DNA from: Escherichia coli
GTDB lineage: Bacteria; Pseudomonadota; Gammaproteobacteria; Enterobacterales; Enterobacteriaceae
Direction: 5' to 3' (one strand)
NCBI RefSeq assembly: GCF_050320075.1
Contig: NZ_CP190018.1
Length of the DNA: 64,000 nucleotides
The notes beneath the pieces were generated by a model, which saw only the letters and a list, made by a program, of their open reading frames with translations, ran no database searches and was not told where the DNA came from. This document shows positions 4,461-63,245 of this stretch, piece after piece. Positions within the stretch are counted from its first letter, which is position 1; each line of letters opens with the position of its first letter. A program made the position numbers and the translations under genes.

Positions 4461-4502
4461 GCGATTTCCTTTTATCTTTCGACACGTAAAACGAATACCG
4501 GG

Positions 4503-4530
4503 GTTATCGGCCTGAATTGCGCAAAGTTTA
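4503..4530 (-). promoter_or_regulatory. sigma28 (FliA) class III promoter for fliDST
   Basis: Minus strand reads TAAACTTT-N11-GCCGATAA about 45 bp upstream of the fliD start. Confidence 0.5.
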
Positions 4531-4622
4531 CGTTTAATTGTTTTTTTTAATAGCGGGAATAAGGGGCAGAGAAAAGAGTATTTCGGCGACTAACAAAAAA
4601 TGGCTGTTTGTGAAAAAAATTC

Positions 4623-4649
4623 TAAAGGTTGTTTTACGACAGACGATAA
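4623..4649 (+). promoter_or_regulatory. sigma28 (FliA) promoter for fliC
   Basis: TAAAGGTT-N11-GACGATAA about 75 bp upstream of the fliC ATG. Confidence 0.55.
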
Positions 4650-4725
4650 CAGGGTTGACGGCGATTGAGCCGACGGGTGGAAACCCAATACGTAATCAAC
4701 GACTTGCAATATAGGATAACGAATC

Positions 4726-6396
4726 ATGGCACAAGTCATTAATACCAACAGCCTCTCGCTGATCACTCAAAATAATATCAACAAGAACCAGTCTGCGCTG
4801 TCGAGTTCTATCGAGCGTCTGTCTTCTGGCTTGCGTATTAACAGCGCGAAGGATGACGCCGCAGGTCAGGCGATTGCTAACCGTTTTACTTCTAACATTA
4901 AAGGCCTGACTCAGGCTGCACGTAACGCCAACGACGGTATTTCTGTTGCACAGACCACTGAAGGCGCGCTGTCCGAAATCAACAACAACTTACAGCGTAT
5001 TCGTGAACTGACGGTTCAGGCGACGACCGGAACTAACTCCACCTCTGACCTGGACTCCATTCAGGACGAAATCAAATCCCGTCTTGATGAAATTGACCGC
5101 GTATCCGGCCAGACCCAGTTCAACGGCGTGAACGTACTGTCAAAAGATGGCTCGATGAAAATTCAGGTCGGCGCGAACGATGGTGAAACCATCACGATTG
5201 ATCTGAAAAAGATCGACTCTTCTACATTGAAGCTGACCGGTTTTAACGTGAATGGCGAAGGTGAAACAGCCAATACTGCTGCAACACTTAAAGATATGGT
5301 TGGTTTAAAACTCGATAATACGGGGGTCACTACAGCTGGAGTTAATAGATATATTGCTGACAAAGCCGTCGCAAGTAGCACGGATATTTTGAATGCGGTA
5401 GCTGGTGTTGATGGCAGTAAAGTTTCCACGGAGGCAGATGTTGGTTTTGGTGCGGCTGCCCCTGGTACGCCAGTGGAATATACTTATCATAAAGATACTA
5501 ACACATATACGGCTTCTGCTTCAGTTGATGCGACTCAACTGGCGGCATTCCTGAATCCTGAAGCGGGTGGTACCACTGCTGCAACAGTAAGTATTGGCAA
5601 CGGTACAACAGCTCAAGAGCAAAAAGTCATTATTGCTAAAGATGGTTCTTTAACTGCTGCTGATGACGGTGCCGCTCTCTATCTTGATACTAATGGTAAC
5701 TTAAGTAAAACTAACGCAGGCACTGATACTCAAGCTAAACTGTCTGACTTAATGGCAAACAATGCTAAGGCAAAAACAGTCATTACAACAGATAAAGGTA
5801 CATTTACTGCTAATACGACAAACGATGGTTTTGATGGGGTAGATATTTCTGTTGATGCTTCAACGTTTGCTAATGCCGTTAAAAATGAGACTTACACTGC
5901 AACTGTTGGTGTAACTTTACCAGCGACATATACAGTCAATAATGGCACTGCTGCATCAGCGTATTTAGTCGATGGAAAAGTGAGCCAAACTCCTGCCGAG
6001 TATTTTGCTCAAGCTGATGGCACTATTACTAGTGGTGAAAATGCGGCTACCAGTAAAGCTATCTATGTAAGTGCCAATGGTAACTTAACGACTAACACAA
6101 CGAGTGAATCTGAAGCGACTACCAACCCGCTGGCAGCATTGGATGACGCTATCGCGTCCATCGACAAATTCCGTTCATCCCTTGGTGCTATCCAGAACCG
6201 TCTGGATTCCGCGGTCACCAACCTGAACAACACCACTACCAACCTGTCCGAAGCGCAGTCCCGTATTCAGGACGCCGACTATGCGACCGAAGTGTCCAAC
6301 ATGTCGAAAGCGCAGATTATTCAGCAGGCCGGTAACTCCGTGCTGGCAAAAGCTAACCAGGTACCGCAGCAGGTTCTGTCTCTGCTGCAGGGTTAA
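4726..6396 (+). CDS. fliC: flagellin (H antigen), 556 aa with non-K-12 central domain
   Basis: Conserved flagellin N terminus ([12 protein letters not shown]...) and C terminus (...QVLSLLQG); central region differs in length and sequence from the 498-aa K-12 flagellin. Confidence 0.95.
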
Positions 6397-10025: not shown

Positions 10026-10694
10026 ATGCAAGAAAGTATACAACTGGTTATTGATTCCTTGCCGTTCCTGCTGAAAGGGGCTGGGTATACGCTGCAACTC
10101 AGTATCGGCGGCATGTTTTTTGGCTTACTGCTCGGGTTTATTCTCGCGCTGATGCGCCTTTCGCCAATCTGGCCCGTGCGCTGGCTGGCGCGTTTTTATA
10201 TCTCTATTTTTCGTGGTACGCCGCTCATCGCCCAACTGTTTATGATCTATTACGGCTTGCCGCAGTTTGGCATCGAACTAGATCCCATTCCGTCAGCAAT
10301 GATTGGTCTGTCGCTAAACACTGCCGCCTATGCTGCCGAAACGCTGCGCGCCGCCATTTCTTCTATTGATAAAGGTCAGTGGGAAGCTGCTGCCAGTATT
10401 GGTATGACGCCGTGGCAGACCATGCGTCGCGCGATTTTGCCACAGGCGGCGCGGGTGGCGTTGCCGCCGCTGTCGAACAGCTTTATCAGCCTGGTAAAAG
10501 ATACGTCGCTGGCCGCGACAATCCAGGTGCCGGAGCTGTTCCGTCAGGCGCAGTTGATTACCTCGCGTACGCTGGAGGTGTTCACCATGTACCTGGCGGC
10601 TTCGCTCATCTACTGGATCATGGCGACAGTATTATCGACGTTGCAGAACCATTTTGAGAATCAACTTAATCGCCAGGAGAGAGAACCAAAATGA
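10026..10694 (+). CDS. tcyL: cystine ABC transporter permease
   Basis: 222-aa polytopic permease recognised as YecS/TcyL. Confidence 0.9.
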   Translation: MQESIQLVIDSLPFLLKGAGYTLQLSIGGMFFGLLLGFILALMRLSPIWPVRWLARFYISIFRGTPLIAQLFMIYYGLPQFGIELDPIPSAMIGLSLNTAAYAAETLRAAISSIDKGQWEAAASIGMTPWQTMRRAILPQAARVALPPLSNSFISLVKDTSLAATIQVPELFRQAQLITSRTLEVFTMYLAASLIYWIMATVLSTLQNHFENQLNRQEREPK

Positions 10695-11443
10695 GTGCCA
10701 TTGAAGTTAAGAACCTGGTGAAAAAATTCCACGGTCAGACGGTGCTGCACGGTATCGACCTTGAGGTGAAGCCTGGCGAAGTGGTGGCAATTATCGGGCC
10801 AAGTGGTTCCGGCAAAACCACGTTGCTACGCAGCATAAATCTGCTGGAACAACCGGAAGCGGGAACCATCACCGTTGGCGATATCACCATTGATACTGCA
10901 CGTTCATTAAGTCAGCAAAAATCGCTGATTCGCCAGTTGCGTCAGCACGTCGGGTTTGTCTTCCAGAACTTTAATTTGTTTCCGCATCGTACGGTGCTGG
11001 AAAACATTATTGAAGGGCCGGTGATCGTCAAAGGCGAACCGAAAGAAGAGGCCACGGCGCGCGCTCGCGAGCTGCTGGCGAAAGTTGGGCTGGAAGGTAA
11101 AGAAACCAGCTATCCACGTCGTTTGTCTGGCGGTCAACAGCAGCGTGTCGCGATTGCGCGAGCGCTGGCTATGCGTCCTGAGGTGATTTTGTTTGACGAG
11201 CCAACGTCGGCGCTGGATCCAGAGCTGGTGGGCGAAGTCCTGAACACCATCCGCCAGCTGGCGCAGGAAAAGCGCACGATGGTGATTGTGACGCACGAAA
11301 TGAGCTTTGCCCGGGATGTTGCGGACCGGGCGATCTTTATGGACCAGGGGCGGATAGTCGAGCAGGGGGCCGCAAAAGCGTTATTTGCCGATCCTCAGCA
11401 GCCTCGCACCCGCCAGTTCCTCGAGAAGTTTCTGCTGCAATAA
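10691..11443 (+). CDS. tcyN: cystine ABC transporter ATP-binding protein
   Basis: 250-aa ABC ATPase (GPSGSGKTT, LSGGQQQR), 4-bp overlap with tcyL. Confidence 0.9.
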   Translation: MSAIEVKNLVKKFHGQTVLHGIDLEVKPGEVVAIIGPSGSGKTTLLRSINLLEQPEAGTITVGDITIDTARSLSQQKSLIRQLRQHVGFVFQNFNLFPHRTVLENIIEGPVIVKGEPKEEATARARELLAKVGLEGKETSYPRRLSGGQQQRVAIARALAMRPEVILFDEPTSALDPELVGEVLNTIRQLAQEKRTMVIVTHEMSFARDVADRAIFMDQGRIVEQGAAKALFADPQQPRTRQFLEKFLLQ

Positions 11444-11672
11444 TAAGAAAAAATCAGCCCCGACGATTCACCTGTCGGGGCGGGACGCCATTTCAAGCGT
11501 GATAAATCTGCTTAACAAATCAGCATAACTCATTAATAACATAAGAGAATGCGATGGCTTGCAAAAGTAATTCATTGCCTGAATAATATAAATTATATAT
11601 AAATCTTATTTATGTGATAGTTTGAATTATCATTATAAATGATACTCACTCTCAGGGGCGTTGCGGTTTACT

Positions 11673-12395
11673 ATGCAGGATACGGATTTTTTCAGCTGGC
11701 GTCGCACGATGCTGTTGCGTTTTCAGAGGATGGAGGCCGCAGAAGAGGTCTACCATGAAATAGAGCTTCAGGCTCAGCAGCTGGAGTACGATTACTATTC
11801 GTTATGTGTTCGCCACCCGGTACCATTCACGCGACCTAAAGTGGCTTTCTACACCAATTACCCTGAGGCTTGGGTTAGTTATTATCAGGCAAAAAACTTT
11901 CTCGCAATTGATCCTGTGCTGAACCCTGAAAACTTTAGTCAGGGCCATTTAATGTGGAATGATGACTTATTCAGCGAAGCACAGCCGTTATGGGAAGCCG
12001 CGCGCGCACATGGTTTACGCCGCGGTGTCACTCAGTATTTAATGCTGCCAAATCGGGCGCTGGGCTTTTTGTCCTTTTCCCGTTGCAGCACGCGCGAAAT
12101 ACCCATTCTTAGTGATGAACTGCAATTAAAAATGCAGTTACTGGTGCGAGAAAGTCTGATGGCTCTGATGCGTTTAAATGATGAAATAGTGATGACGCCA
12201 GAGATGAATTTCAGCAAGCGCGAAAAAGAAATTCTGAAATGGACGGCGGAAGGGAAGACATCAGCAGAGATAGCGATGATTTTGTCAATCTCTGAGAATA
12301 CGGTCAATTTCCATCAGAAAAACATGCAGAAAAAAATCAATGCACCAAATAAGACCCAGGTGGCCTGTTACGCGGCCGCTACTGGCTTAATTTGA
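11673..12395 (+). CDS. sdiA: LuxR-family quorum-sensing regulator SdiA
   Basis: Recognised as SdiA; start at MQDTDFFSW ATG (track ORF begins at an upstream TTG). Confidence 0.9.
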   Translation: MQDTDFFSWRRTMLLRFQRMEAAEEVYHEIELQAQQLEYDYYSLCVRHPVPFTRPKVAFYTNYPEAWVSYYQAKNFLAIDPVLNPENFSQGHLMWNDDLFSEAQPLWEAARAHGLRRGVTQYLMLPNRALGFLSFSRCSTREIPILSDELQLKMQLLVRESLMALMRLNDEIVMTPEMNFSKREKEILKWTAEGKTSAEIAMILSISENTVNFHQKNMQKKINAPNKTQVACYAAATGLI

Positions 12396-12461
12396 TCGCT
12401 TTTCTTTCTGCGTGCCAGATGCAAAAACCGGCTGAAAGGCACGCTCTCAGCCGGTTTTATA

Positions 12462-12686
12462 TTACTGACGGTAGGCTTGTTTAATTTGCTTAACCGTTTT
12501 GGAAAATACTGCAGCCTGGGTTTCGTCTTCGATCAGCGCAAGCTGTTTTTCCATCTTTAACATCACGCGGCCCGCGTCAGCTTGTCCCATCGCCTGCAGC
12601 ATCAGCGTCAGCATCGCTTTCAGGCAGGAGACTTCATTTGCCAGTTCTTGATTATTCTCGGCAGTAGAAAAATCAGGCGTACTCAT
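12462..12686 (-). CDS. yecF: uncharacterised protein YecF
   Basis: 74-aa ORF in conserved position between sdiA and uvrY. Confidence 0.8.
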
Positions 12687-13144
12687 TTATTTTCCTCGTC
12701 ATGTTGCAATGAAAATTTGCGGTGAAAAATGTTAAGGCGGCGGAGTATACCATAAGCTTTGCTAAAAATAGCAGTGGTTGTTTTTTGAGCGTGATATCGG
12801 CAGTGCTATAAAATACGTTAATATAATGACCAATAAATATTTTTATCATGAATGTTTTTTGCCCGTATTGTTCGGGTTAATTAATGTTACATATTCAGCG
12901 GGCTGATTTTCATTTTTGCTGAATAAAGTCAATTTTTGTCACATTTCATCGCAGGGCTTACAGTGAAACGATCCCGGAAGCCGTTGGTGACGGGCGTGAC
13001 CATAACTGTGGACAATCGAATTTACAAAAACGAGAGAAAAATCGAATACCCACCATTTTTAACGTTTCAAAGTTGCAATAAAAACCGCTAATATACGAAT
13101 GACTAACTATCAGTAGCGTTATCCCTATTTCTGGAGATATTCCT

Positions 13145-13801
13145 TTGATCAACGTTCTACTTGTTGATGACCACGAACTGGTGCGCGCAGGGATACGACG
13201 CATTCTGGAAGATATAAAGGGTATAAAAGTCGTCGGTGAGGCATCGTGCGGTGAAGACGCCGTTAAGTGGTGCCGGGCAAATGCCGTTGACGTGGTGCTA
13301 ATGGACATGAGTATGCCGGGCATTGGCGGTCTTGAGGCGACGCGTAAAATCGCGCGTTCCACAGCTGATGTCAAAATCATCATGCTTACCGTCCATACAG
13401 AAAACCCTTTACCAGCGAAAGTCATGCAGGCCGGTGCTGCTGGCTACCTCAGCAAAGGCGCGGCTCCGCAGGAAGTCGTGAGTGCGATCCGTTCTGTCTA
13501 TTCAGGGCAGCGTTACATTGCTTCTGACATCGCTCAACAAATGGCGTTAAGCCAGATCGAACCAGAAAAAACAGAAAGCCCATTTGCCAGTTTGTCTGAA
13601 CGTGAATTGCAGATTATGCTGATGATCACCAAGGGCCAGAAGGTCAATGAGATCTCAGAACAGCTCAATCTCAGTCCGAAAACGGTGAACAGCTACCGCT
13701 ATCGTATGTTCAGTAAACTAAACATTCATGGCGATGTTGAGCTGACTCACCTGGCAATTCGCCATGGTCTGTGTAATGCGGAGACATTATCAAGTCAGTG
13801 A
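13145..13801 (+). CDS. uvrY: response regulator UvrY (TTG start)
   Basis: 218-aa receiver + LuxR HTH protein recognised as UvrY. Confidence 0.9.
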
Positions 13802-15630
13802 GTGATCAGTTTGACGCAAAAGCGTTTTTAAAAACCGTAACCAGCCAGCCAGGCGTTTATCGCATGTATGATGCTGGTGGTACGGTTATCTATGTCGGCA
13901 AAGCGAAAGACCTGAAAAAACGGCTTTCCAGCTATTTCCGTAGCAACCTCGCTTCGCGCAAAACCGAAGCGCTGGTCGCCCAGATCCAGCAAATTGATGT
14001 AACGGTTACTCATACAGAAACCGAAGCGCTGTTGCTGGAACACAACTACATCAAACTCTATCAGCCGCGTTACAACGTTTTGCTACGCGATGATAAATCT
14101 TATCCTTTTATCTTCCTGAGTGGCGATACCCACCCGCGTCTGGCGATGCATCGTGGTGCGAAGCATGCCAAAGGTGAATATTTCGGCCCGTTCCCGAATG
14201 GCTATGCCGTACGTGAAACACTGGCGCTACTGCAAAAGATATTCCCCATTCGCCAGTGCGAAAATAGTGTTTATCGCAATCGCTCGCGTCCGTGTCTGCA
14301 ATATCAGATAGGGCGCTGTCTGGGACCGTGCGTTGAAGGACTGGTGAGTGAAGAAGAATACGCTCAGCAGGTCGAGTATGTGCGCCTGTTTTTGTCTGGC
14401 AAAGATGATCAGGTGCTTACGCAACTCATTAGCCGTATGGAAACTGCCAGCCAGAATCTGGAGTTTGAAGAAGCGGCACGTATTCGCGACCAAATTCAGG
14501 CGGTGCGACGCGTCACCGAAAAACAGTTTGTGTCCAATACCGGCGACGACCTCGACGTTATTGGTGTGGCGTTCGATGCGGGCATGGCTTGTGTCCATGT
14601 ATTGTTCATTCGTCAGGGCAAAGTGCTCGGCAGCCGCAGCTATTTCCCGAAAGTGCCTGGCGGTACGGAACTGAGCGAGGTGGTAGAAACCTTCGTAGGT
14701 CAGTTCTATTTACAAGGCAGCCAGATGCGCACCTTACCGGGTGAGATCCTGCTCGATTTTAATCTTAGCGATAAAACGCTGCTCGCCGATTCCCTTTCAG
14801 AACTGGCGGGACGCAAGATTAATGTTCAAACCAAACCTCGCGGCGATCGGGCGCGTTATCTGAAACTCGCGCGCACCAATGCGGCGACGGCCTTAACCAG
14901 CAAACTTTCGCAGCAATCTACCGTTCACCAGCGACTGACCGCGCTTGCCAGCGTGTTGAAATTGCCGGAAGTGAAGCGGATGGAGTGCTTTGACATCAGC
15001 CATACCATGGGTGAACAAACCGTCGCTTCCTGTGTGGTGTTTGATGCTAACGGCCCGCTGCGTGCGGAGTATCGGCGCTATAACATTACTGGCATCACGC
15101 CGGGCGATGATTATGCGGCGATGAATCAGGTGCTGCGTCGGCGTTATGGTAAAGCCATCGACGACAGTAAGATCCCGGATGTGATCCTTATTGACGGCGG
15201 CAAAGGCCAGCTTGCGCAGGCGAAAAATGTCTTCGCCGAACTGGATGTCTCATGGGATAAAAATCATCCGCTGCTTCTTGGCGTTGCCAAAGGTGCAGAT
15301 AGGAAGGCAGGGTTGGAAACGCTGTTCTTTGAGCCGGAAGGTGAGGGATTCAGTTTGCCGCCAGATTCTCCCGCGCTGCATGTTATCCAGCATATTCGCG
15401 ATGAATCACACGATCACGCGATTGGCGGGCACCGTAAGAAACGGGCGAAGGTCAAAAATACCAGTTCCCTGGAAACCATTGAAGGCGTCGGGCCAAAACG
15501 TCGGCAAATGTTGTTGAAATATATGGGCGGTTTGCAAGGTTTACGTAACGCCAGCGTTGAGGATATTGCAAAAGTGCCGGGTATTTCGCAAGGTCTGGCA
15601 GAAAAGATCTTCTGGTCGTTGAAACATTGA
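13798..15630 (+). CDS. uvrC: excinuclease ABC subunit C (GTG start)
   Basis: 610-aa ORF with GIY-YIG N terminus, overlapping the uvrY stop. Confidence 0.95.
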
Positions 15631-15686
15631 TGTCTCTGTAGCAACATAGGGGTAATCTTACTGACAACAGATAGTTACCCGTCATT

Positions 15687-16235
15687 ATGCAATTTAATAT
15701 CCCTACGTTGCTTACACTGTTCCGTGTCATCCTTATCCCATTCTTTGTATTGGTCTTTTATCTGCCTGTCACCTGGTCGCCGTTTGCCGCCGCGCTCATT
15801 TTCTGCGTCGCGGCGGTGACTGACTGGTTCGATGGTTTTCTGGCACGCCGCTGGAACCAGAGTACCCGGTTTGGTGCTTTCCTTGACCCTGTAGCAGATA
15901 AAGTTCTCGTGGCTATCGCCATGGTGCTGGTAACCGAGCATTATCACAGCTGGTGGGTGACCTTACCGGCAGCAACGATGATCGCCCGTGAAATTATTAT
16001 TTCTGCGCTACGCGAATGGATGGCGGAGTTGGGTAAACGCAGTAGCGTGGCTGTCTCCTGGATTGGGAAAGTGAAAACCACCGCCCAGATGGTGGCGCTG
16101 GCCTGGCTGCTGTGGCGTCCGAACATTTGGGTTGAGTACGCCGGTATTGCACTTTTCTTTGTGGCTGCGGTACTGACTCTGTGGTCAATGTTGCAATATT
16201 TGAGCGCTGCGCGTGCAGATTTGCTTGATCAGTGA
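15687..16235 (+). CDS. pgsA: CDP-diacylglycerol--glycerol-3-phosphate 3-phosphatidyltransferase
   Basis: 182-aa membrane protein recognised as PgsA. Confidence 0.95.
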
Positions 16236-16386
16236 TCGTTTCGGCGCAATTTTCAGCAAACGATCAAAAGTGGTGAAAAATATCGTTGACTCATCGCGCC
16301 AGGTAAGTAGAATGCAACGCATCGAACGGCGGCACTGATTGCCAGACGATAATAAAATCAAGTGATTAACTGATTGCTTGATGAAT

Positions 16387-16462
<76 letters not shown>

Positions 16463-16516
16463 GTTTAAAAGGCATCGGCGTCAAGCGGATGTCTGGCTGA
16501 AAGGCCTGAAGAATTT

Positions 16517-16590
16517 GGCGCGTTAACAAAGCGGTTATGTAGCGGATTGCAAATCCGTCTAGTCCGGTTCGACTCCGGAACGCGCCTCCA
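16517..16590 (+). tRNA. cysT: tRNA-Cys (GCA)
   Basis: GGCGCGTTAACAAAGCGG...CGCGCCTCCA, anticodon GCA. Confidence 0.95.
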
Positions 16591-16602
16591 CTTTCTTCCC
16601 GA

Positions 16603-16689
16603 GCCCGGATGGTGGAATCGGTAGACACAAGGGATTTAAAATCCCTCGGCGTTCGCGCTGTGCGGGTTCAAGTCCCGCTCCGGGTACCA
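16603..16689 (+). tRNA. leuZ: tRNA-Leu (UAA)
   Basis: GCCCGGATGGTGGAATCGGTAGACACAAGGGATTTAAAATCCC...CCGGGTACCA, long variable arm, anticodon TAA. Confidence 0.95.
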
Positions 16690-16763
16690 TGGGAAAGATA
16701 AGAATAAAATCAAAGCAATAAGCAGTGTCGTGAAACCACCTTCGGGTGGTTTTTTTGTGCCTG
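16634..16763. repeat. direct repeat copy 1 (att-like): 3' 56 nt of leuZ plus ~74 bp downstream including terminator
   Basis: Near-identical to 20765..20895; begins in the leuZ anticodon loop. Confidence 0.85.
16733..16757 (+). terminator. rho-independent terminator of the glyW-cysT-leuZ operon
   Basis: AAACCACCTTCGGGTGGTTT hairpin followed by TTTTTTT. Confidence 0.7.
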
Positions 16764-16941
16764 AAATTCACGCCCTGTGCATATCCTGTGCTCACGGGGG
16801 GCAATGAGCTGCAATCTCAAGCCCGGCAATGCCGAATCGAACGTGTCGCCTCCAGCATAGAGAACCAGGCCGCTTTGCCTGTTTTCCGGTACTCTTCCGG
16901 GAAGGGGGGCCAGCTGAGCAAGCTATAATGCTCTGGCCACC

Positions 16942-17673
16942 CTAAGCACAAAGTTGCTTAATTCGTGCAATCACCTCATCTCTGTATTTCTGGTGTCCGC
17001 GCATAGCCCTTGGATGGGCTATCCTGAAACAGATTGTATGACCTGTTTTGAACTCCCATAGCTTCCCCGGAATGACTGAAGAAGTCTCATAGCCGCCTAG
17101 CTCAGTAAGCACCTGTTTTATGATGTAGTCTGTTCTCCGGGCTCCGGATGCAAAGATGGTGAAATCAGGCTCAAGGTGTTTAATTTGTACCGCCAGCAGT
17201 TTCAGCGAGGCTAATATGACTTCCTGCACTTCATTTTGAGGGCGATTGAGAGGGGGCAGTCCGTCGTAATCCCACGCCAGTAGATTGGCATACACGATAG
17301 CCTGAGGAGGAATATTAAGCTCCCGGGCCAGCCGGAAGTGATACTGCGTGAAGCGGCTACGTGATTTGTGGTTCGTGGTGCCATCATTTTGTGCCGGAAG
17401 ATGTTTCCTGTAACGATCTACAGCCTCTTCAACCACCTGCCCGATGGTGACGTCAGGTATAAGTCCCAGAACCCGTGATATCGTATTCTTACCATTCAGC
17501 GTATTCCAGCCAGCGGTTTCACGCCCAACCAGCATGATTTTTACCGGTGAGTGCCAGTATTCTTCAAAGGGCACGGGTAAAAAGACGCCTGAGTATTTAT
17601 CCTCATTCAGGTTAAATGACTGGGCGTCAACTTCCTGTAATATCCGTTTGTATGCGTCTAATAGTCTTTCCAT
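16942..17673 (-). CDS. hypothetical protein, 243 aa, with uracil-DNA-glycosylase-superfamily-like motif pattern (tentative)
   Basis: Long intact ORF; N-terminal KIMLVGRETAGW resembles UDG motif A (family 4 IMFVGEAPG), C-terminal IAHPRAMRG resembles motif B (HPxxxxR); no database search possible. Confidence 0.55.
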   Translation of the reverse strand: MERLLDAYKRILQEVDAQSFNLNEDKYSGVFLPVPFEEYWHSPVKIMLVGRETAGWNTLNGKNTISRVLGLIPDVTIGQVVEEAVDRYRKHLPAQNDGTTNHKSRSRFTQYHFRLARELNIPPQAIVYANLLAWDYDGLPPLNRPQNEVQEVILASLKLLAVQIKHLEPDFTIFASGARRTDYIIKQVLTELGGYETSSVIPGKLWEFKTGHTICFRIAHPRAMRGHQKYRDEVIARIKQLCA

Positions 17674-17753
17674 TCTTCAATCCTGCCCCGTAATAAAAAT
17701 ACCTTCAGATATATATTATTTTCATGATATCAATCAGATACATGAGGATAAAT

Positions 17754-18440
17754 ATGCAAAAATCCTTCCGATTCACCAATTCATCCATCAAAGCCCTTCC
17801 GGCAAACACAGATACCCGATCTACAGAGCTTGAGGTATCTGATACCGAAGTCATTGGCCTCAAATGCCTCTCAGGTCGAACGGGCAACAAACGTTTCCTC
17901 CTGCGCTACACATTCCACGGTACCAAAAAAAGTATCAGTATTGGCAGATTCCCTGAAATCGATGTGGGAACAGCCCGTCAGATAGCTCGTCGTCACAAGG
18001 AGGCGATTGCACTGGGAAATGACCCTAAGGCAGAGCGCGATAATTATCGGGCGATGCCAACGCTTAGTGAGTTTTTTCACCAGACCTATGTTCCGTTCAT
18101 CAAGCGCCATAAAAAGTCCTGGGATAAGGATGTTCAGCGTTTCACGCAATACATTGAACCTCGTCTGGGGAAGATACGTTACTGCGACCTTCAGGCCCGG
18201 GAAATCCAGCAGGTGCTTTTTGACATGCTTGAGGGCCGTATTCACGGCCAGCAGTATGCACCGTCTACCTGTAACAGGGCACTGGCTATTCTGAAAACCA
18301 TGGGCCGTTATGCGCTACGACAGGATGTCCTGGAGAAGAATGAAGCCGATAAGATCCCTTTGCTGAAGGAGAATAATCACCGGACGCGCTTTTTTGACGC
18401 TGATGAGATCAGGAGAATCCTTGATGCTGCGTCTCGATAA
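17754..18440 (+). pseudogene. P4-type tyrosine integrase, N-terminal fragment only (catalytic domain missing)
   Basis: MQKSFRFTNSSIKALP... arm-binding/DUF4102-like N terminus and core-binding region; ORF stops at ~228 aa versus ~400 aa expected, so the R..HxxR..Y catalytic domain is absent. Confidence 0.75.
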
Positions 18441-18454
18441 CCCAATAAAGCTGC

Positions 18455-18490
<36 letters not shown>

Positions 18491-18491
18491 C

Positions 18492-18535
<44 letters not shown>

Positions 18536-18655
18536 TTCTAAGGCTTGCTTTAATGCTAAGGCTAAATGATTTTGATATAGTAAGTTCATACTTAGCGGGC
18601 AGATGCCCACAGACATAGTACCGAAAATAAATCAGGTATTCTGCGAGATTTCAGT

Positions 18656-19984
18656 ATGAAAATAGCCAATATTAGACTTACGAATTTTAGATGTTTTGAC
18701 GAGTTTAGTGTTGATTTTGACCCAAGACTTACAGTTCTCATTGCTCGTAATGGTAGAGGGAAATCTACTCTGCTTGACGCGGTAGCATTAGCTTTAGGAC
18801 CATTTTTAACTCGTTTGCCAGGGATCAAAGGGCTAAGTTTCAAGAAAACCGATTTCCGGATCGACGAAAATGGAGACCAGCCGTCCTATATGCGAGTAAG
18901 TTGTACTAGTACAACGGGTATAACTTGGGATAGAACTGAGCGAAGAGATCTGACAAAAAAAACGTTAGGTAGCATCCCCCAAGGGGCAGCCCTTAAAGCC
19001 TTGAATGATTACGTCGATACGTTCATTGATTCTCACAATGAGAATAAACACTATACATTGCCAATTTTTGTTTATTACGGAACTGGGCGTGGAGTGTTTG
19101 ATATACCACTCAGAAAACGTGCATTTAACAAGCATTTTTCTCGATTTGAGGCCCTTGACGGTGCTCTTGAAAGCAAAACAAATTTCAAAAGATTTGTGCA
19201 ATATTTTTATTTTCTTGAAGAAAAAGAAAATAGATTACAGAAAGAGCAACGATCATTTGAAGTAGAAATCCCTGAATTAAGGGCAATACGCTTGGCTGTG
19301 GAAAAATTACTGCCAGAGTTTAGCAATATTCGCTCGGCAGTACCTGCTGGAATTATGGTCGATTGGTGTAAGCCTATTGGAAATGGTGAAACAACCATAC
19401 AAAAGCTAAGGATTGAACAACTTAGTGATGGCTATAGAACAACTTTAGCTATGGTTATGGATATTGCAGCAAGAATGGCAGAAGCTAACCCCTATTCGAG
19501 TGATCCTCTAAGTTCTGAGGGGATAATTCTCATTGATGAGGTAGATCTGCATCTGCATCCGGAATGGCAACGTGAGTTTCTCCCTAGATTAATCAACGTT
19601 TTCCCTCATCTTCAGTTCATAGTATCGACGCATTCACCATTTATCATCCAGTCTGTCAAAGAGGGGATGTTGGTCGATCTTGATAAAGATGACATTTCGG
19701 ATAGCCCCTCTTTGAATAAAGAACTCAGCATCGAAGATATTGCTGAGGGTGTAATGGGAATGGAAAAAGTTCAACGAAGTGAATTGTTTAACAAACAAGT
19801 CGCAGTTTCAGATAGATATTATCAGTTACTGAATGAAGGAAGAAGTGAAAGCGACCCAGAGGTAAGGAAGCTCTCCGCTGAGCTTGATAAATTGGAAGAG
19901 TTTTTTGGAGATAACCCAGCTTATGTAGCCTTACTTCGTGCTGAGCGCCGAAAAATAATGGGGACACAAGGAAGTAAACAATGA
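18656..19984 (+). CDS. ABC/AAA-type ATPase (RecF/SMC-like head, AAA_15/21-like), 442 aa; Septu PtuA-like candidate
   Basis: Walker A NGRGKST (K36), signature-like LSDGYR, Walker B IILIDEVD, H-loop STHSP; ~37% GC; stop overlaps the downstream start (ATGA). Confidence 0.85.
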   Translation: MKIANIRLTNFRCFDEFSVDFDPRLTVLIARNGRGKSTLLDAVALALGPFLTRLPGIKGLSFKKTDFRIDENGDQPSYMRVSCTSTTGITWDRTERRDLTKKTLGSIPQGAALKALNDYVDTFIDSHNENKHYTLPIFVYYGTGRGVFDIPLRKRAFNKHFSRFEALDGALESKTNFKRFVQYFYFLEEKENRLQKEQRSFEVEIPELRAIRLAVEKLLPEFSNIRSAVPAGIMVDWCKPIGNGETTIQKLRIEQLSDGYRTTLAMVMDIAARMAEANPYSSDPLSSEGIILIDEVDLHLHPEWQREFLPRLINVFPHLQFIVSTHSPFIIQSVKEGMLVDLDKDDISDSPSLNKELSIEDIAEGVMGMEKVQRSELFNKQVAVSDRYYQLLNEGRSESDPEVRKLSAELDKLEEFFGDNPAYVALLRAERRKIMGTQGSKQ

Positions 19985-20592
19985 GACCTGTAAATCGACC
20001 TCCATATAATGGAACTGTTTATGCAGATTATAAATCATTTTTACCTTCGCTATTAACTGCATATGGCGGATATTGTTCTTATTGTGAGCGGCCGGATAAG
20101 GTTGATGTGGAGCATGTTGTCCCAAAAACGCATGCACCACTTTTGATTACTGATTGGAACAATTTTTTACTGGGTTGCCCTCGCTGTAACCGAGATTTTA
20201 AAAAAAGTAAGAATACTCAACGTATAGGCTATGTTTGGCCAGATGTTGAGAATACATTTAATTTATTGACATACCATCCAGATGGTAGAGTAGAGCCTAA
20301 GCAGGGGCTGTCTGCCGGACTAACTGCGCAGGTACAGGCTACTATTGATTTGGTATGTCTTGATGATGGTAACCAAGTACAAAAAACTTTAAATCTTGGT
20401 AGAAGGAGATATTTTGGACTCGCGAATAAGGCCAAGACTCTTTATCTGAGTAATTTATTGAGTATTGATGAGGTCATGGATATGGCTCAGTTAGGATATT
20501 GGTCGATCTGGTATAATGTGTTTCAAGGTGTACCTGCTGTCCTTTCAGCTTTGGAGAATTCCTATCCTAATACCGCTATAAACCGCCCATGA
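19981..20592 (+). CDS. HNH endonuclease, 203 aa; Septu PtuB-like candidate
   Basis: Zinc-finger HNH pattern C32-x2-C35 ... H45 ... N60 ... C66-x2-C69; translationally coupled to the upstream ATPase. Confidence 0.85.
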   Translation: MRPVNRPPYNGTVYADYKSFLPSLLTAYGGYCSYCERPDKVDVEHVVPKTHAPLLITDWNNFLLGCPRCNRDFKKSKNTQRIGYVWPDVENTFNLLTYHPDGRVEPKQGLSAGLTAQVQATIDLVCLDDGNQVQKTLNLGRRRYFGLANKAKTLYLSNLLSIDEVMDMAQLGYWSIWYNVFQGVPAVLSALENSYPNTAINRP

Positions 20593-20764: not shown

Positions 20765-20895
20765 AATTTAAAATCCCTCGGCGTTCGCGCTGTGCGGGTT
20801 CAAGTACCCGCTCCGGGTACCATGGGAAAGATAAGAATAAAATCAAAGCAATAAGCAGTGTCGTGAAACCACCTTCGGGTGGTTTTTTTGTGCCT
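20765..20895. repeat. direct repeat copy 2 (att-like): partial leuZ 3' half + terminator copy with a 1-bp insertion
   Basis: Matches 16634..16763 except an extra A (CAAGTACCCGCTCC versus CAAGTCCCGCTCC). Confidence 0.85.
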
Positions 20896-21017
20896 GCAAC
20901 TTGTCGTTACACCCTCCTTAATTTTTAATCACCGGCAAAGCCACTCAAAAAGTATCTCTGTTACGGACCGACATGTAAGATAGGTGCTGGCGAGTTGAGA
21001 TCCACAAGGAAAAGCGT

Positions 21018-56583: not shown

Positions 56584-58731
<2,148 letters not shown>

Positions 58732-58783
58732 ACAAACTCCCTTTAAAATGGCCGATGGCACCTGTCTATGATAGGTGGCAAAT

Positions 58784-59128: not shown

Positions 59129-59180
59129 CATCAAGGTCTAAATGCACTACATGGGCACCTAAACATATACATGTGATGTT

Positions 59181-59203: not shown

Positions 59204-59218
59204 CAGCCCCTGATAGAC

Positions 59219-60139
59219 TTAGTAATTATCCCTGACAACTTCATCATATCTTTCAATGAAGGTTAGTTGTTTATTACTTCCATTATAACTATCAACCCAT
59301 TTGTCTACAGCTTCATCGAATAGAAATAAAAAATCCGTATAATTTATATACACTACATTATCATAATATTGGGTTGGGTGACCTCTTTTACATACAGCAA
59401 TACTAAGACGTCTTTCTTTACCCTGAGTAACTTTGTGTGAATTAAGATTAGTCATGTGAAGCAATGAGTTCCTTAATTCATATAATTCGTCGGAAGTTAC
59501 TCCAAGTTTTTGTATATCTGAGTATGTATCTAACCAATTTTGAAAGACTCTTCTTTTGTTTCCAAACTCAATATAAGCTATAGTATCAATAAATGACATT
59601 AATAGCTTGAAGCTTGACAAGTAATGTTTTTTGTTAAACAGAAGCTTTATTGGTTCCATATGGTCATCATTAAGAAGTTCCTTAATGTGAAAACCATCAT
59701 CTTTCATATACTTATCAAGATAGTCTGGCAAGTCTTTTACACCTTCAATGTGATAGTTAGGTGTGTGCTTATTCCTTAATTGCTCTGACATTGATAACTG
59801 AATATCATATTGTAATTTGCCTTTAACAACGGGGGTGACTATAGCTAAAGGGTTTTCAGGTGCATTTTGAGCTTCTAATGCTAATTCAAACGGAGCAAAA
59901 GGATTACCAATCCGCAAATTTGCATTATATCTTTCAAGTGTCAATTTGTCATTTTCTAAAACAGAAGGGTGTATCCCATAAAATAAACGACAAGAAGCTA
60001 AGTCAATCTCCAAATTCCGCTTTAAAAAATCTAATTTTTGCGCATCATCGCCATCATGTTCGTGAGGTACTATTCCGGCATGTGTGATATGAACTCCATC
60101 AGGACTAAAGCAAAATATGTTGTAGATAATCTCTTTCAT
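59219..60139 (-). CDS. hypothetical protein, 306 aa, with RNxxxH (HEPN-like) motif; candidate Abi-type RNase (tentative)
   Basis: Long intact ORF in AT-rich DNA at the island edge; motif R223-N-S-L-L-H228 fits the HEPN R-x4-6-H consensus; no other recognisable domain. Confidence 0.65.
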   Translation of the reverse strand: MKEIIYNIFCFSPDGVHITHAGIVPHEHDGDDAQKLDFLKRNLEIDLASCRLFYGIHPSVLENDKLTLERYNANLRIGNPFAPFELALEAQNAPENPLAIVTPVVKGKLQYDIQLSMSEQLRNKHTPNYHIEGVKDLPDYLDKYMKDDGFHIKELLNDDHMEPIKLLFNKKHYLSSFKLLMSFIDTIAYIEFGNKRRVFQNWLDTYSDIQKLGVTSDELYELRNSLLHMTNLNSHKVTQGKERRLSIAVCKRGHPTQYYDNVVYINYTDFLFLFDEAVDKWVDSYNGSNKQLTFIERYDEVVRDNY

Positions 60140-61249: not shown

Positions 61250-61912
61250 ATGTCAATTGAGTGTATTTTAATCGGGAAACATCATGGGGGTTCTGATTAC
61301 TGGAGAACTCCATTTTTGTTATTTAAGAACTTACACCGTGAATTTATTTTCAGTCTGGATGGTGCTGCAACTAAGCACGATACGTTATTACCCCGCTTTA
61401 CGGATGATATTCACAATCAGTCATGGGATGGTGAACGGGTATTCTGTAACCCACCATACAGCGACACTAAAACATTCCTCGTAAAAGCGTCTGAGGCAGA
61501 TTTATCGGTATTCCTGATACCGTACCGACCCCAAACCATATACTGGCTTAAGCACATCTTCACAAACCCGCTTTGCCATGAAATCCGTATTCTTCATCGT
61601 GCAGTTAAATACCTTCCACCAGCAGGGCATAACAGGCTTACTATTAGGTCGCCGTTTCCAAGTGCAGTCGTTGTTTTTAAAAAAGAACCACGCAGGCATG
61701 AAATTACGCAGATGGTTTGCTGTGCTGATACATTGCTACCGTTAACCATCATTAACAGAGGAGGCTTGAGAGGAAGGCCCACCATTTACCCACCTGAGAC
61801 GCTCGACAGCTTCATAAAACTATACAGGCAAGGCAAACCCATTAAGTGCATTGCAGATGCTCTCAGAATGCCTCTGAGCACGTCATACAGGATTGCTCAA
61901 AGGTTGAGCTAG
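61250..61912 (+). CDS. phage Dam-like DNA N6-adenine methyltransferase with C-terminal HTH-like segment
   Basis: DYWRTPFLLF ... FSLDGAA ... CNPPYSD (motif IV N/DPPY) typical of phage N6-A MTases; C-terminal IKCIADALRMPLSTSYRIAQRL looks helix-turn-helix; start codon uncertain. Confidence 0.6.
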   Translation: MSIECILIGKHHGGSDYWRTPFLLFKNLHREFIFSLDGAATKHDTLLPRFTDDIHNQSWDGERVFCNPPYSDTKTFLVKASEADLSVFLIPYRPQTIYWLKHIFTNPLCHEIRILHRAVKYLPPAGHNRLTIRSPFPSAVVVFKKEPRRHEITQMVCCADTLLPLTIINRGGLRGRPTIYPPETLDSFIKLYRQGKPIKCIADALRMPLSTSYRIAQRLS

Positions 61913-62276: not shown

Positions 62277-63245
62277 ATGAAAAAAGAAACTAATGCTTTT
62301 ATTATGGTAGATAAACGAGTTGCACAATTCCCTAAAACATTAAAGCCAATTGACCGCTTGGTATATTTCACTATGCTGGATGGTGCTGATTATTACGAAT
62401 CTAAGTTCGGGAGATACGCACCAAGTATTGACTATTTGATGGTTATGTCTGGTGCTACACGTAATACAGTTATTGATTCACTTAAGAGACTTGAGTCACA
62501 CAGACTTATCGAAAAGACCAATGTAAAGGGTCAGCAAAGTATTTTTAAAGTATTCACGTTGGATGAGCGTCCAGAGGTCTTATCAGAACCTACCCTTGAT
62601 GAGCGTCGTAGAGCTAAATTATCAGGTCAACCAGAATCTGACAGTAACCCAACCAAAAATTGGTTACCTACCCAACCAGAATTTGGTTACCTACCTAACC
62701 AGAATTTGGTTACATGTAATACTGAATATAAAGACAAAAATATAAATACTGAAGAAGAAAGACTAAAAGGGAACTTTGAAGAAGAATCTCTTAAGAAGGG
62801 AGCTTCGCTCTGTGATTCACATGAATGTGATATTAAAGAAGATGACTTTCTTTCTTTGGATGAATTAAATGATTTTCTCTCTATGAATGAATCTGGCCTT
62901 GATAGTGAAGCTACTAAAGAGGCTGTTAAAAAGGAAGATAAAATCTCTGATGTGAATATCGATAGTGACCATAAAAACACACAGTGCCCCGCCACTGATG
63001 ATGAGATGGACCCCTTCGATGATTACCTTGATGAAGAGTCAGAGCGTGAAAAAGCCATTAAGAGGGTAGAGAAGAAAAAGAGATTCGAGCTTGCAAGACA
63101 AAAGAACAAAGTATCGGGTTTAGACCCATTCGATGACAGTGACGATGATGACTTTTCTTTCACACCAAGAAAGAAACAAACTCAGGATGACAAGAAGCAA
63201 AAAATTAAACCGAAGATGTATTTTGCTGGTGGAGGTATGCGCTAA
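62277..63245 (+). CDS. winged-helix DNA-binding protein with long acidic low-complexity tail (replication-initiator/regulator-like)
   Basis: N-terminal ~95 aa resemble phage Rep/replisome-organiser winged helix; C-terminal two-thirds D/E/K-rich with a twice-repeated DPFDD motif. Confidence 0.55.
   Translation: MKKETNAFIMVDKRVAQFPKTLKPIDRLVYFTMLDGADYYESKFGRYAPSIDYLMVMSGATRNTVIDSLKRLESHRLIEKTNVKGQQSIFKVFTLDERPEVLSEPTLDERRRAKLSGQPESDSNPTKNWLPTQPEFGYLPNQNLVTCNTEYKDKNINTEEERLKGNFEEESLKKGASLCDSHECDIKEDDFLSLDELNDFLSMNESGLDSEATKEAVKKEDKISDVNIDSDHKNTQCPATDDEMDPFDDYLDEESEREKAIKRVEKKKRFELARQKNKVSGLDPFDDSDDDDFSFTPRKKQTQDDKKQKIKPKMYFAGGGMR

What the first reader, a model, noticed from the sequence alone, without database searches (positions are those of the whole stretch)
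18656..20592. AT-rich ATPase + HNH nuclease operon in the leuZ island: Septu-like candidate anti-phage system
Two translationally coupled genes (stop/start overlap ATGA at 19981..19984) sit in ~37% GC DNA inside a tRNA-associated island. Gene 1 is a 442-aa ABC/AAA-type ATPase (Walker A NGRGKST with K36, Walker B IILIDEVD, H-loop STHSP) with no nuclease or TOPRIM domain. Gene 2 is a 203-aa zinc-finger HNH endonuclease (C32/C35, H45, N60, C66/C69). ATPase + HNH is the architecture of Septu (PtuA/PtuB); PARIS and OLD/Gabija pair an ATPase with TOPRIM instead. I cannot tell from sequence alone whether this is a described Septu subtype or a new variant, which is what makes it worth checking.
Basis: partly seen in the sequence, partly recalled or inferred. 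Interest (0 to 1): 0.8.

Follow-up and report, generated by a model that had tools for sequence, protein, structure and literature searches.

The report
Ordinary Septu (PtuAB) anti-phage operon
The two overlapping genes are a standard two-gene Septu anti-phage defence system (PtuA ATPase plus PtuB HNH nuclease) carried on a small decayed island next to the leuZ tRNA gene of E. coli; existing defence-gene catalogues already recognise it, so it is real but not new.

Summary
ORFs 18656..19984 (442 aa) and 19981..20592 (203 aa) overlap by ATGA and carry the stated Walker A, Walker B, H-loop and zinc-finger HNH motifs. They lie in a 4.1-kb island flanked by 133-nt direct repeats at leuZ. There are two corrections: GC is 40.0%, not about 37%, and the conserved HNH Asn is N61, not N60.

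The Septu interpretation is supported. PADLOC PtuA and PtuB models match both proteins full-length (E 2e-190 and 6e-61). The predicted folds match only solved PtuA and PtuB chains from E. coli Septu and retron I-A. No reverse transcriptase or TOPRIM domain is present. The gene pair recurs as a unit in five unrelated genomic contexts, and non-synonymous change is far rarer than synonymous change.

It is a type I Septu system of a catalogued subfamily (PDLC00267/PDLC00315). It sits in 40 of 5,426 complete E. coli genomes, where RefSeq labels it only "AAA family ATPase / HNH endonuclease". It differs from the two tested E. coli Septu systems, at about 30% PtuA identity. Its trigger and substrate (DNA or tRNA-Tyr) therefore remain unknown.

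Verdict: already known, low interest.

The parts
16603..16689 (+). tRNA-Leu(UAA) leuZ, the integration target. It is the last gene of the glyW-cysT-leuZ cluster.
   Evidence: ARAGORN; Rfam tRNA; RefSeq annotation of the identical locus.
16634..16766 (.). Left copy of the 133-nt direct repeat (attL-like). It comprises the 3' 56 nt of leuZ plus 77 nt downstream, including the leuZ terminator hairpin.
   Evidence: the repeat finder families D1 and D2; sequences printed.
16942..17673 (-). 243-aa gene of unknown function. It travels with the island integrase and is not part of the ATPase-nuclease pair.
   Evidence: No PADLOC, NCBIfam or Pfam hit. phrog_29550 (unknown function) at E 1.7e-172. Found beside the integrase in leuZ islands carrying other cargo. 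Absent from ptuAB loci of other genera.
17724..18440 (+). Truncated tyrosine-integrase gene: arm-binding and N-terminal part only, catalytic C-terminus missing.
   Evidence: Weak XerC/XerD and phrog_1 integrase hits to the N-terminal region. RefSeq marks it a pseudogene missing its C-terminus. A full-length 1,200-nt version exists in strain LD93-1.
18455..18536 (.). 82-nt fragment of an IS3-family element, directly after the integrase break point.
   Evidence: 97-98% identity to DNA annotated as IS3-family transposase on E. coli plasmids (hits H44 and H45).
18553..18581 (+). Candidate extended -10 promoter (ATGCTA-N17-TGaTATAGT), about 75 nt upstream of ptuA. This is a consensus match only.
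   Evidence: Own scan. The stricter tool scan found no promoter-like site upstream of ptuA.
18656..19984 (+). ptuA: 442-aa ABC/SMC-type ATPase. Walker A K36, signature-like motif 256-LSDGYR-261, Walker B D294/E295, H-loop H326. The C-terminal extension (about residues 354-442) is predicted helical.
   Evidence: PADLOC PtuA PDLC00267, E 2.1e-190, full length. Pfam AAA_23/AAA_21/AAA_15. PDB PtuA 8ee4, E 5e-43. Model pLDDT 82, and all 50 listed Foldseek hits are PtuA chains. Invariant residues.
19981..20592 (+). ptuB: 203-aa HNH (beta-beta-alpha-Me) nuclease. Zinc finger C32/C35/C66/C69, H45, N61, N70, and a helical C-terminal domain (about residues 112-192). Its start overlaps the ptuA stop (ATGA).
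   Evidence: PADLOC PtuB PDLC00315, E 6.1e-61, full length. Pfam HNH. Model pLDDT 97, and the only significant Foldseek hits are PtuB chains. The family profile hits Septu PtuB 8ee7_C at E 7.7e-8. Invariant residues.
20766..20899 (.). Right copy of the direct repeat (attR-like). It is a pseudo 3' fragment of leuZ with a 1-nt insertion, plus a second copy of the leuZ terminator hairpin (about 20866-20890). That hairpin is the only obvious terminator after ptuB.
   Evidence: the repeat finder; sequence comparison.

Best explanation
This is a type I Septu anti-phage defence operon, ptuA-ptuB. It is the cargo of a small, no longer mobile integrative island at leuZ.

Shown here:
- The two genes encode a PtuA-family ABC/SMC-like ATPase and a PtuB-family HNH nuclease, with all catalytic residues intact.
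- They are translationally coupled.
- They move between genomes as a self-contained pair.
- Across genera, non-synonymous change is far rarer than synonymous change in both genes.

Inferred from solved and tested homologues:
- PtuA dimers oligomerise. Pairs of their helical C-terminal extensions clamp the helical C-terminal domain of PtuB, giving a PtuA-rich complex (6:2 in E. coli ATCC 25922 Septu).
- ATP bound to PtuA keeps the HNH nuclease off.
- Infection, through a phage protein cue and/or a fall in ATP, releases the nuclease. The nuclease then cuts nucleic acid and stops phage production, at the cost of growth arrest at high multiplicity of infection.

Substrate: I judge DNA (nicking or cleavage) somewhat more likely (about 55%) than tRNA-Tyr (about 35%). 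Sequence cannot decide this, because both outcomes have been reported for homologues that are about equally distant.
For: Identity of the proteins:
- Full-length PADLOC hits: PtuA 631.5 bits and PtuB 204.1 bits.
- PtuA matches solved Septu PtuA 8ee4 at E 5.2e-43.
- PtuB matches retron I-A PtuB chains at E 3.5e-7. The family profile reaches Septu PtuB 8ee7_C at E 7.7e-8.
- The PtuB model (pLDDT 97.1) has only PtuB chains as significant structural neighbours, best TM 0.72 to 8eea_G.
- For the PtuA model (pLDDT 82), all 50 listed neighbours are PtuA chains. Its C-terminus forms helices at 376-393, 401-415 and 421-441.
- Catalytic residues are invariant across homologues.

Behaviour as a defence cassette:
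- The ATPase plus HNH pair is conserved, with a 4-nt overlap in 4 of 5 cases. It occurs in Pectobacterium, Proteus, Shewanella (next to GmrSD and NYN genes and IS elements), Vibrio (next to a prophage integrase) and Fulvitalea (inside a type I R-M operon). The neighbours differ every time.
- Against the Pectobacterium orthologues, pN/pS is 0.098/0.770 for ptuA and 0.178/0.769 for ptuB.
- The island is flanked by direct repeats at a tRNA gene. The same site holds other defence-type cargo in other strains.

Mechanism, from the literature:
- 6:2 PtuAB complex that cleaves DNA, with ATP inhibiting the nuclease (PMC12640716, citing Li et al. 2024).
- Pairs of PtuA C-terminal extensions sandwich the PtuB C-terminal domain (PMC12819146).
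- Septu EcB88 needs Walker A, Walker B and HNH residues, and cleaves the tRNA-Tyr variable loop (PMC13096335).
Against: - No experiment exists for this subfamily. No held paper lists WP_001595859 or WP_001595858.
- PtuA is only about 28-31% identical to the two tested E. coli Septu ATPases.
- PtuB is not significantly similar by pairwise comparison to either tested PtuB: E 0.96 to 8ee7_C and E 0.89 to EcB88 PtuB. Trigger, stoichiometry and substrate may therefore differ.
- The signature-like motif is LSDGYR (Y260 invariant). It is LSDGLR in ATCC 25922 PtuA and LSDGQR in Ec78 PtuA (PMC12819146).
- No strong sigma-70 consensus lies upstream of ptuA.
- The surrounding island is decayed, and the locus is rare: 40 of 5,426 complete genomes, all at least 99% identical. 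Conservation within E. coli therefore says nothing about selection.
- NCBIfam's curated PtuA, PtuB and TIGR02646 models all score below their cut-offs.
Confidence: 0.88

Rival explanations
1. It is a leftover effector module of a type I-A retron (Septu type II). In such systems PtuAB is held inactive by a reverse transcriptase and msDNA, and here it would have lost that partner.
For: By sequence, the closest solved relatives of PtuB are retron I-A PtuB chains (E 3.5e-7). NCBIfam's best hits are the retron Ec78 PtuA and PtuB models. PADLOC ATPase_I-A scores 249.8 bits.
Against: - No reverse-transcriptase ORF and no retron RNA lie in or near the island.
- The NCBIfam retron models score far below their cut-offs: 240 versus 500 bits, and 46.7 versus 150 bits.
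- This PtuA is 442 aa. The solved retron PtuA chains are 542-552 aa, and Ec78 PtuA carries an N-terminal extension and a helical flap (PMC12819146).
- None of the five homologous loci examined has a reverse transcriptase next to the pair.
- Septu type I models score 2.5 to 4 times higher.
Confidence: 0.02
2. The genes are intact but silent or non-protective in this strain. They would be a passenger remnant in a degenerate island, with no current defence role.
For: - The integrase is truncated and an IS3 fragment abuts it.
- No strong promoter consensus lies upstream.
- One of the 40 genomes has an IS3 element inserted in the 3' end of ptuB.
- All E. coli copies are at least 99% identical (the 15 listed are 100%), so there is no within-species evidence of selection.
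Against: - Both ORFs are complete, and every invariant family residue is present.
- None of the 15 listed copies other than the IS3-carrying genome shows an interruption.
- A candidate extended -10 promoter (TGaTATAGT) lies 75 nt upstream.
- Non-synonymous change is far rarer than synonymous change across genera.
- Septu EcB88 was active from its native 300-bp flank (PMC13096335).
Confidence: 0.07
3. It is an ATPase-nuclease pair with a non-defence role. It could act in DNA repair or recombination (SbcCD/RecF/Rad50-like), or as an addiction module that stabilises the island.
For: The N-terminal 45-65 residues of PtuA match Rad50, RecF, SbcC and SMC heads. Retron-free PtuAB of Eco7 is toxic when over-expressed (PMC12640716).
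Against: - Similarity to repair ATPases is limited to the P-loop head and scores at most about 39 bits, against 631 bits for PtuA.
- There is no coiled-coil or Mre11/SbcD partner.
- The distribution is patchy and horizontally transferred: rare in E. coli, and sited next to R-M genes, GmrSD genes and prophage integrases. This fits defence genes, not housekeeping repair.
Confidence: 0.03

Closest known systems
Septu type I (PtuA/PtuB), PADLOC subfamily models PDLC00267 and PDLC00315
   Same: Both proteins match these models over their whole length at very high scores (631.5 and 204.1 bits). The locus has the same two-gene, same-strand, overlapping architecture and no third gene.
   Different: Nothing detectable; this is the family it belongs to. 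I found no experimental study of a member of this subfamily.
E. coli ATCC 25922 Septu (PDB 8EE4, 8EE7, 8EEA, 8SUX; Li et al. 2024)
   Same: PtuA aligns over residues 1-353 at E 5e-43 and shares the fold (TM 0.62-0.68). The PtuB fold gives the best TM of all PDB chains (0.72). Both systems have a helical PtuA C-terminal extension and a helical PtuB C-terminal domain.
   Different: PtuA is about 28-30% identical and PtuB about 18%, with pairwise E 0.96. The proteins here are shorter: 442 versus 465 aa, and 203 versus 243 aa. The signature-like motif is LSDGYR rather than LSDGLR. The 6:2 stoichiometry, ATP inhibition and DNA nicking are untested for this variant.
E. coli Septu EcB88 (strain JBBDAGI-19-0041; WP_000981116.1 / WP_016243072.1), which cleaves the tRNA-Tyr variable loop
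   Same: It is a stand-alone PtuA plus PtuB pair in E. coli. The Walker A Lys, Walker B Asp and HNH His/Asn required there (K43, D316, H75, N91) correspond to K36, D294, H45 and N61 here. The His-to-Asn spacing of 16 residues is the same (PMC13096335).
   Different: It falls in different PADLOC subfamilies, PDLC00271 and PDLC00344. PtuA is 31% identical. PtuB shows no significant pairwise similarity (E 0.89).
Retron type I-A effectors (Ec78/Eco7, Ec83/Eco4 PtuAB; 'Septu type II')
   Same: The ATPase and HNH folds are homologous.
   Different: There is no reverse transcriptase or msr-msd here. The PtuA here is about 100 aa shorter than the solved retron PtuA chains (442 versus 542-552 aa), which carry an N-terminal extension and a helical flap (PMC12819146). 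NCBIfam equivalog cut-offs are not reached.
Gabija (GajA), PARIS (AriA/AriB), OLD-family ATPase-nucleases
   Same: They share a related ABC-type ATPase head (weak hits: AriA E 2e-10, GajA about E 1e-3).
   Different: Their nuclease is TOPRIM, either fused or on a separate protein. Here no TOPRIM domain is found, and the nuclease is a separate HNH protein.

Membership tests
Septu type I (PtuAB) | PtuA: ABC/SMC-like ATPase recognised by a PtuA profile | tested here: met
   PADLOC PDLC00267, E 2.1e-190, 631.5 bits, residues 1-432 against profile positions 1-430 of 438. PDB PtuA 8ee4 at E 5.2e-43. Foldseek: all 50 listed hits are PtuA chains.
Septu type I (PtuAB) | PtuB: HNH nuclease recognised by a PtuB profile | tested here: met
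   PADLOC PDLC00315, E 6.1e-61, 204.1 bits, residues 1-200 against profile positions 1-209 of 227. Pfam HNH at E 6.5e-6. Foldseek: all 9 significant hits are PtuB chains.
Septu type I (PtuAB) | ptuA and ptuB adjacent, co-oriented, forming a self-contained two-gene unit | tested here: met
   ATGA overlap at 19981..19984. The pair is conserved in five other genera with unrelated neighbours.
Septu type I (PtuAB) | Intact catalytic residues shown to be essential in tested Septu systems (Walker A Lys, Walker B Asp/Glu, HNH His and Asn) | tested here: met
   K36, D294/E295 and H326 in PtuA; H45, N61 and N70 in PtuB. All are invariant in the family alignments. The requirement was shown for the EcB88 system (PMC13096335).
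Septu type I (PtuAB) | Absence of an associated reverse transcriptase and ncRNA (separates type I from type II / retron I-A) | tested here: met
   No RT-like ORF in the island. Rfam at E<=1 finds only the three tRNAs and a sub-threshold sRNA hit.
Septu type I (PtuAB) | PtuA oligomer binds PtuB through the PtuA C-terminal extension and the PtuB C-terminal domain (6:2 in the solved E. coli complex) | not testable with these tools
   Only single-chain models were possible. They show the expected helical elements: PtuA 376-441 and PtuB 112-192. The profile of this PtuB family aligns to the C-terminal part of 8ee7_C.
Septu type I (PtuAB) | Confers phage resistance that depends on both the ATPase and the nuclease | not testable with these tools
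   Needs a cloning and plaque assay. No published test of these accessions was found.
Retron type I-A (Ec78/Ec83-like; Septu type II) | Reverse transcriptase plus msr-msd ncRNA encoded next to ptuAB; PtuA and PtuB reach the NCBIfam equivalog cut-offs | tested here: not met
   No RT or ncRNA. NF041760 scores 240.1 bits against a cut-off of 500. NF041761 scores 46.7 bits against 150.
TIGR02646 (retron-system putative HNH endonuclease subfamily) | Score at or above the curated cut-off of 52.15 bits | tested here: not met
   38.1 bits. JGI nevertheless labels the identical protein 'TIGR02646 family'.
Gabija / PARIS / OLD-family | TOPRIM nuclease domain fused to, or partnered with, the ABC ATPase | tested here: not met
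   No TOPRIM domain in either protein. AriA, GajA and OLD similarity is confined to the ATPase head or the Walker B region.

The most novel reading that the evidence does not exclude
This Septu subfamily (PADLOC PDLC00267/PDLC00315; short 203-aa PtuB; invariant Tyr in the PtuA signature-like motif) is as distant from each of the two studied E. coli Septu systems as they are from retron PtuAB. It might use a different infection cue or cut a different substrate than either, that is, neither nicked DNA nor the tRNA-Tyr variable loop. That would add a third functional flavour to PtuAB.
Probability: 0.25. Interest if true: 0.35.

Novelty: already known. Interest (0 to 1): 0.15.

Why it matters
It matters only modestly.

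- It confirms that a generically annotated pair ("AAA family ATPase / HNH endonuclease") in about 0.7% of complete E. coli genomes is a Septu defence system.
- It shows that the leuZ-yecA junction holds interchangeable cargo. In one other strain that cargo is defence-type (DUF262 and type I R-M genes).
- PtuAB homologues have been reported to hit different targets: nicked or plasmid DNA, ssDNA and tRNA-Tyr. An untested, compact third E. coli subfamily would therefore be a convenient comparison point for learning what sets PtuB substrate choice. That is incremental work within a known system.

Tried and rejected
- **Retron link:** looked for a reverse transcriptase or retron RNA. None was found, and the NCBIfam retron PtuA and PtuB models fall below their cut-offs.
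- **Three-gene system with the upstream 243-aa gene:** rejected. It has no defence, Pfam or NCBIfam hit. It co-occurs with the integrase rather than with ptuAB. It is absent from ptuAB loci elsewhere.
- **Identity with a tested E. coli Septu:** this is not the EcB88 system, whose sequences I took from the supplement of PMC13096335. PtuA is 31% identical, PtuB is not significantly similar, and the PADLOC subfamilies differ. It is also not the ATCC 25922 system.
- **Literature on these accessions:** none found. Li et al. 2024 (PMC12318543) is not held, so its findings are cited second-hand from PMC12640716 and PMC12819146.
- **Phage or plasmid carriage of this subfamily:** no homologue above 60% identity in the phage or plasmid collections.
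- **Promoter:** the tool scan gave nothing upstream of ptuA. A looser scan gave only a candidate extended -10 element.
- **dN/dS:** could not be computed as a ratio because synonymous sites are saturated. pN and pS are reported instead.
Full report
**1. Observation**

The window is E. coli chromosome. It runs uvrY-uvrC-pgsA, then glyW-cysT-leuZ, then an insert, then yecA-tyrP-ftnA.

They are 18656..19984 (+, 442 aa) and 19981..20592 (+, 203 aa), and the stop of the first overlaps the start of the second in ATGA.

The quoted motifs are present, and family alignments show that they are the conserved ones:
- In the ATPase, N32, G33, G35 and K36 (Walker A), L256-S257-D258-G259-Y260-R261 (signature-like motif), D294, E295 and D297 (Walker B and D-loop) and T325-H326-S327 (H-loop) are invariant in 34 homologues.
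- In the nuclease, C32, C35, E44, H45, W59, N61, C66, C69, N70 and K74 are invariant in 68 homologues.

Two details need correcting:
- GC of both genes is 40.0% (window 48.8%), not about 37%. Only one 400-nt sub-window reaches 36.7%.
- The conserved HNH asparagine is N61, not N60.

**2. Surroundings**

A 133-nt direct repeat brackets a 4,133-bp insert. Its copies lie at 16634-16766 and 20766-20899. The repeat is the last 56 nt of leuZ plus 77 nt that include the leuZ terminator, and the right copy carries a 1-nt insertion. K-12 and most E. coli have the empty site.

From left to right, the insert holds:
- a 243-aa gene of unknown function on the minus strand (no PADLOC, NCBIfam or Pfam hit; phrog_29550, unknown function);
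- an integrase gene that has lost its catalytic C-terminus;
- an 82-nt IS3-family fragment at the break point;
- the two genes of interest.

In other strains the same left end (243-aa gene plus integrase) carries different cargo. In one it is a DUF262 protein with remnants of a type I restriction system. In another it is a set of hypothetical proteins. leuZ-yecA is thus a variable-cargo site, and this island is a decayed, immobile occupant.

The whole 1,937-bp operon is present at 99% identity or more in 40 of 5,426 complete E. coli genomes. It is always chromosomal, and RefSeq calls the products only "AAA family ATPase" (WP_001595859.1) and "HNH endonuclease" (WP_001595858.1). In one genome an IS3 element has clipped the 3' end of the nuclease gene.

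**3. What it is**

*Profile matches.* PADLOC's Septu models match both proteins end to end. PtuA PDLC00267 gives E 2.1e-190 and 631.5 bits. PtuB PDLC00315 gives E 6.1e-61 and 204.1 bits. The best non-Septu models are far weaker: retron I-A ATPase 250 bits, AriA 89 bits, HNH_I-A 46 bits. Pfam sees only ABC/SMC-type ATPase families in the first protein and HNH in the second, with no TOPRIM domain.

*Solved structures, by sequence.* The ATPase matches PtuA of E. coli ATCC 25922 Septu (8ee4, E 5.2e-43, residues 1-353) and the retron I-A PtuA proteins. The nuclease alone reaches only retron I-A PtuB chains (E 3.5e-7), and Septu PtuB 8ee7_C only at E 0.96. A profile of its family reaches 8ee7_C at E 7.7e-8 through the C-terminal domain.

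*Predicted structures.*
- The PtuB model (pLDDT 97.1, pTM 0.91) has nine significant PDB neighbours, and all are PtuB chains. The best TM-score (0.72) is to the E. coli Septu complex 8eea_G. The next hits have E above 2.
- For the PtuA model (pLDDT 82.0), all 50 listed neighbours are PtuA chains. The model shows a helical C-terminal extension, with helices at 376-393, 401-415 and 421-441.

*Exclusion of a retron.* No reverse transcriptase ORF or retron RNA is present. The NCBIfam retron-type PtuA and PtuB equivalogs and TIGR02646 are all below their curated cut-offs. The locus therefore meets every sequence-testable criterion of Septu type I and fails those of retron I-A, Gabija, PARIS and OLD.

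**4. Evidence that the pair is a functional, mobile unit**

Homologues of PtuB were traced to five other genomes. In each, a 423-442-aa ATPase sits immediately upstream, and a 4-nt ATGA overlap is present in four of the five. The neighbours are unrelated in every case:
- housekeeping genes in Pectobacterium and Proteus;
- GmrSD genes, an NYN gene and IS elements in Shewanella;
- a prophage integrase and prophage regulator genes in Vibrio;
- a position between hsdS and hsdR of a type I R-M operon on a Fulvitalea plasmid.

Against the closest orthologue (Pectobacterium; 85% and 72% amino-acid identity), synonymous sites are saturated (pS 0.77). Non-synonymous differences are few (pN 0.098 for ptuA and 0.178 for ptuB). 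This points to purifying selection on both genes.

The ATPase family is large, with more than 2,700 proteins at E<=1e-10 among the candidates scored. No relative above 60% identity is found in the phage or plasmid collections.

**5. How it most likely works**

*Shown here:* the domain content, the intact catalytic residues, the translational coupling and the self-contained two-gene unit.

*Inferred from studied homologues:*
- PtuA forms the scaffold of a PtuA-rich complex, 6:2 in ATCC 25922 Septu (PMC12640716, citing Li et al. 2024).
- Pairs of PtuA C-terminal extensions sandwich the helical C-terminal domain of PtuB (PMC12819146).
- ATP binding inhibits the nuclease (PMC12640716).
- Stand-alone Septu is reported to respond to a phage protein cue, the tail fibre (PMC12819146).
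- Once released, the HNH nuclease cuts nucleic acid and phage production stops, with growth retardation at high multiplicity of infection (PMC13096335).

*Substrate.* The target cannot be read from sequence, because the reports on homologues differ:
- ATCC 25922 PtuAB acts on nicked and plasmid DNA.
- Eco4 PtuAB cuts ssDNA.
- Ec78 PtuAB nicks supercoiled plasmid in vitro.
- Eco7 and Septu EcB88 cause tRNA-Tyr cleavage in vivo (PMC11555353, PMC12640716, PMC12819146, PMC13096335).

I rate DNA about 55%, tRNA-Tyr about 35% and other about 10%.

*Expression.* A candidate extended -10 promoter (TGaTATAGT, ending at 18581) lies 75 nt upstream. The stricter scan found no promoter-like site upstream of ptuA. 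The duplicated leuZ terminator at about 20866-20890 is the likely transcript end.

**6. Comparison with what is known, and novelty**

Two stand-alone E. coli Septu systems have been studied.
- The ATCC 25922 proteins (465 and 243 aa) are about 28-30% (PtuA) and about 18% (PtuB) identical to those here.
- I recovered the EcB88 proteins (WP_000981116.1 and WP_016243072.1) from the supplement of PMC13096335. Its PtuA is 31% identical, and its PtuB is not significantly similar in pairwise comparison.
- EcB88 falls in PADLOC subfamilies PDLC00271 and PDLC00344, against PDLC00267 and PDLC00315 here.
- The mutation numbering in Wu et al. (K43, D316/E317; H75) matches the EcB88 type, not this one.

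The locus is therefore a third E. coli Septu subfamily with no experimental representative that I could find. It is nonetheless squarely inside a catalogued family. Its own subfamily HMMs have been in PADLOC-DB since at least 2023, and they score about 1.4 bits per position, which implies they were built from close relatives. I therefore rate it "already known".

**7. Verdict**

This is a real, well-formed and very probably functional Septu type I system. It is ordinary from the standpoint of discovery. Interest is 0.15.

The only non-trivial open point is which trigger and substrate this subfamily uses. The chance that it differs from both studied E. coli systems is perhaps 25%, and that would be an incremental finding.

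Noticed in passing
window 16942..17673 (-): A 243-aa gene lies between leuZ and the island integrase. It has no Pfam, NCBIfam or PADLOC match but a near-perfect match to phrog_29550 (unknown function). It is conserved next to the integrase in leuZ islands that carry different cargo, so it may be an island maintenance or excision factor, or a separate accessory gene.
   Followed up: partly
window 17724..18536: The island integrase is truncated after about 238 codons. An 82-nt IS3-family fragment (18455-18536, 97-98% identical to IS3-family transposase DNA on E. coli plasmids) sits right at the break. This suggests an IS-mediated deletion that immobilised the island.
   Followed up: partly
window 16634-16766 and 20766-20899: The direct repeat flanking the island is unusually long (133 nt). 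It extends 77 nt past the 3' end of leuZ and duplicates the leuZ terminator. The right-hand pseudo-leuZ fragment has a 1-nt insertion.
   Followed up: yes
L003 (E. coli C325) 10453-16085; L002 (E. coli LD93-1) 10452-20079: The same leuZ-yecA site holds other cargo behind the same 243-aa gene and integrase. In C325 it is type I restriction remnants, an M48 peptidase and a DUF262 (GmrSD-like) protein. In LD93-1 it is DUF2787, DUF726 and large hypothetical proteins. The site therefore carries variable cargo.
   Followed up: partly
L004 (E. coli NRZ105019) 4326-6146: In one of the 40 carrier genomes an IS3-family element is inserted in the 3' end of ptuB, shortening the annotated gene to 582 nt. 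This is a natural knockout candidate.
   Followed up: no
L010 (Fulvitalea axinellae plasmid AP025324.1) 1-9150: A ptuAB homologue pair, plus a 245-aa unknown gene, is nested between hsdM-hsdS and hsdR of a type I restriction-modification operon.
   Followed up: no
L009 (Vibrio fluvialis) 3682-5645: The PtuB here is 44% identical to the window's PtuB, but its partner PtuA is only 30% identical. Elsewhere PtuA is the better-conserved partner (85% versus 72%, 73% versus 58%). This suggests partner swapping between Septu subfamilies. The pair sits directly after a prophage-type integrase.
   Followed up: no
window ~58500-64000: A second low-GC block (35-38% GC) runs off the window end. It holds ORFs at 59219..60139 (-), 61250..61912 (+; weak phage N6-adenine / orphan methyltransferase hits) and 62277..63245 (+). 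The others have no NCBIfam or PADLOC match. It is possibly another horizontally acquired island.
   Followed up: partly
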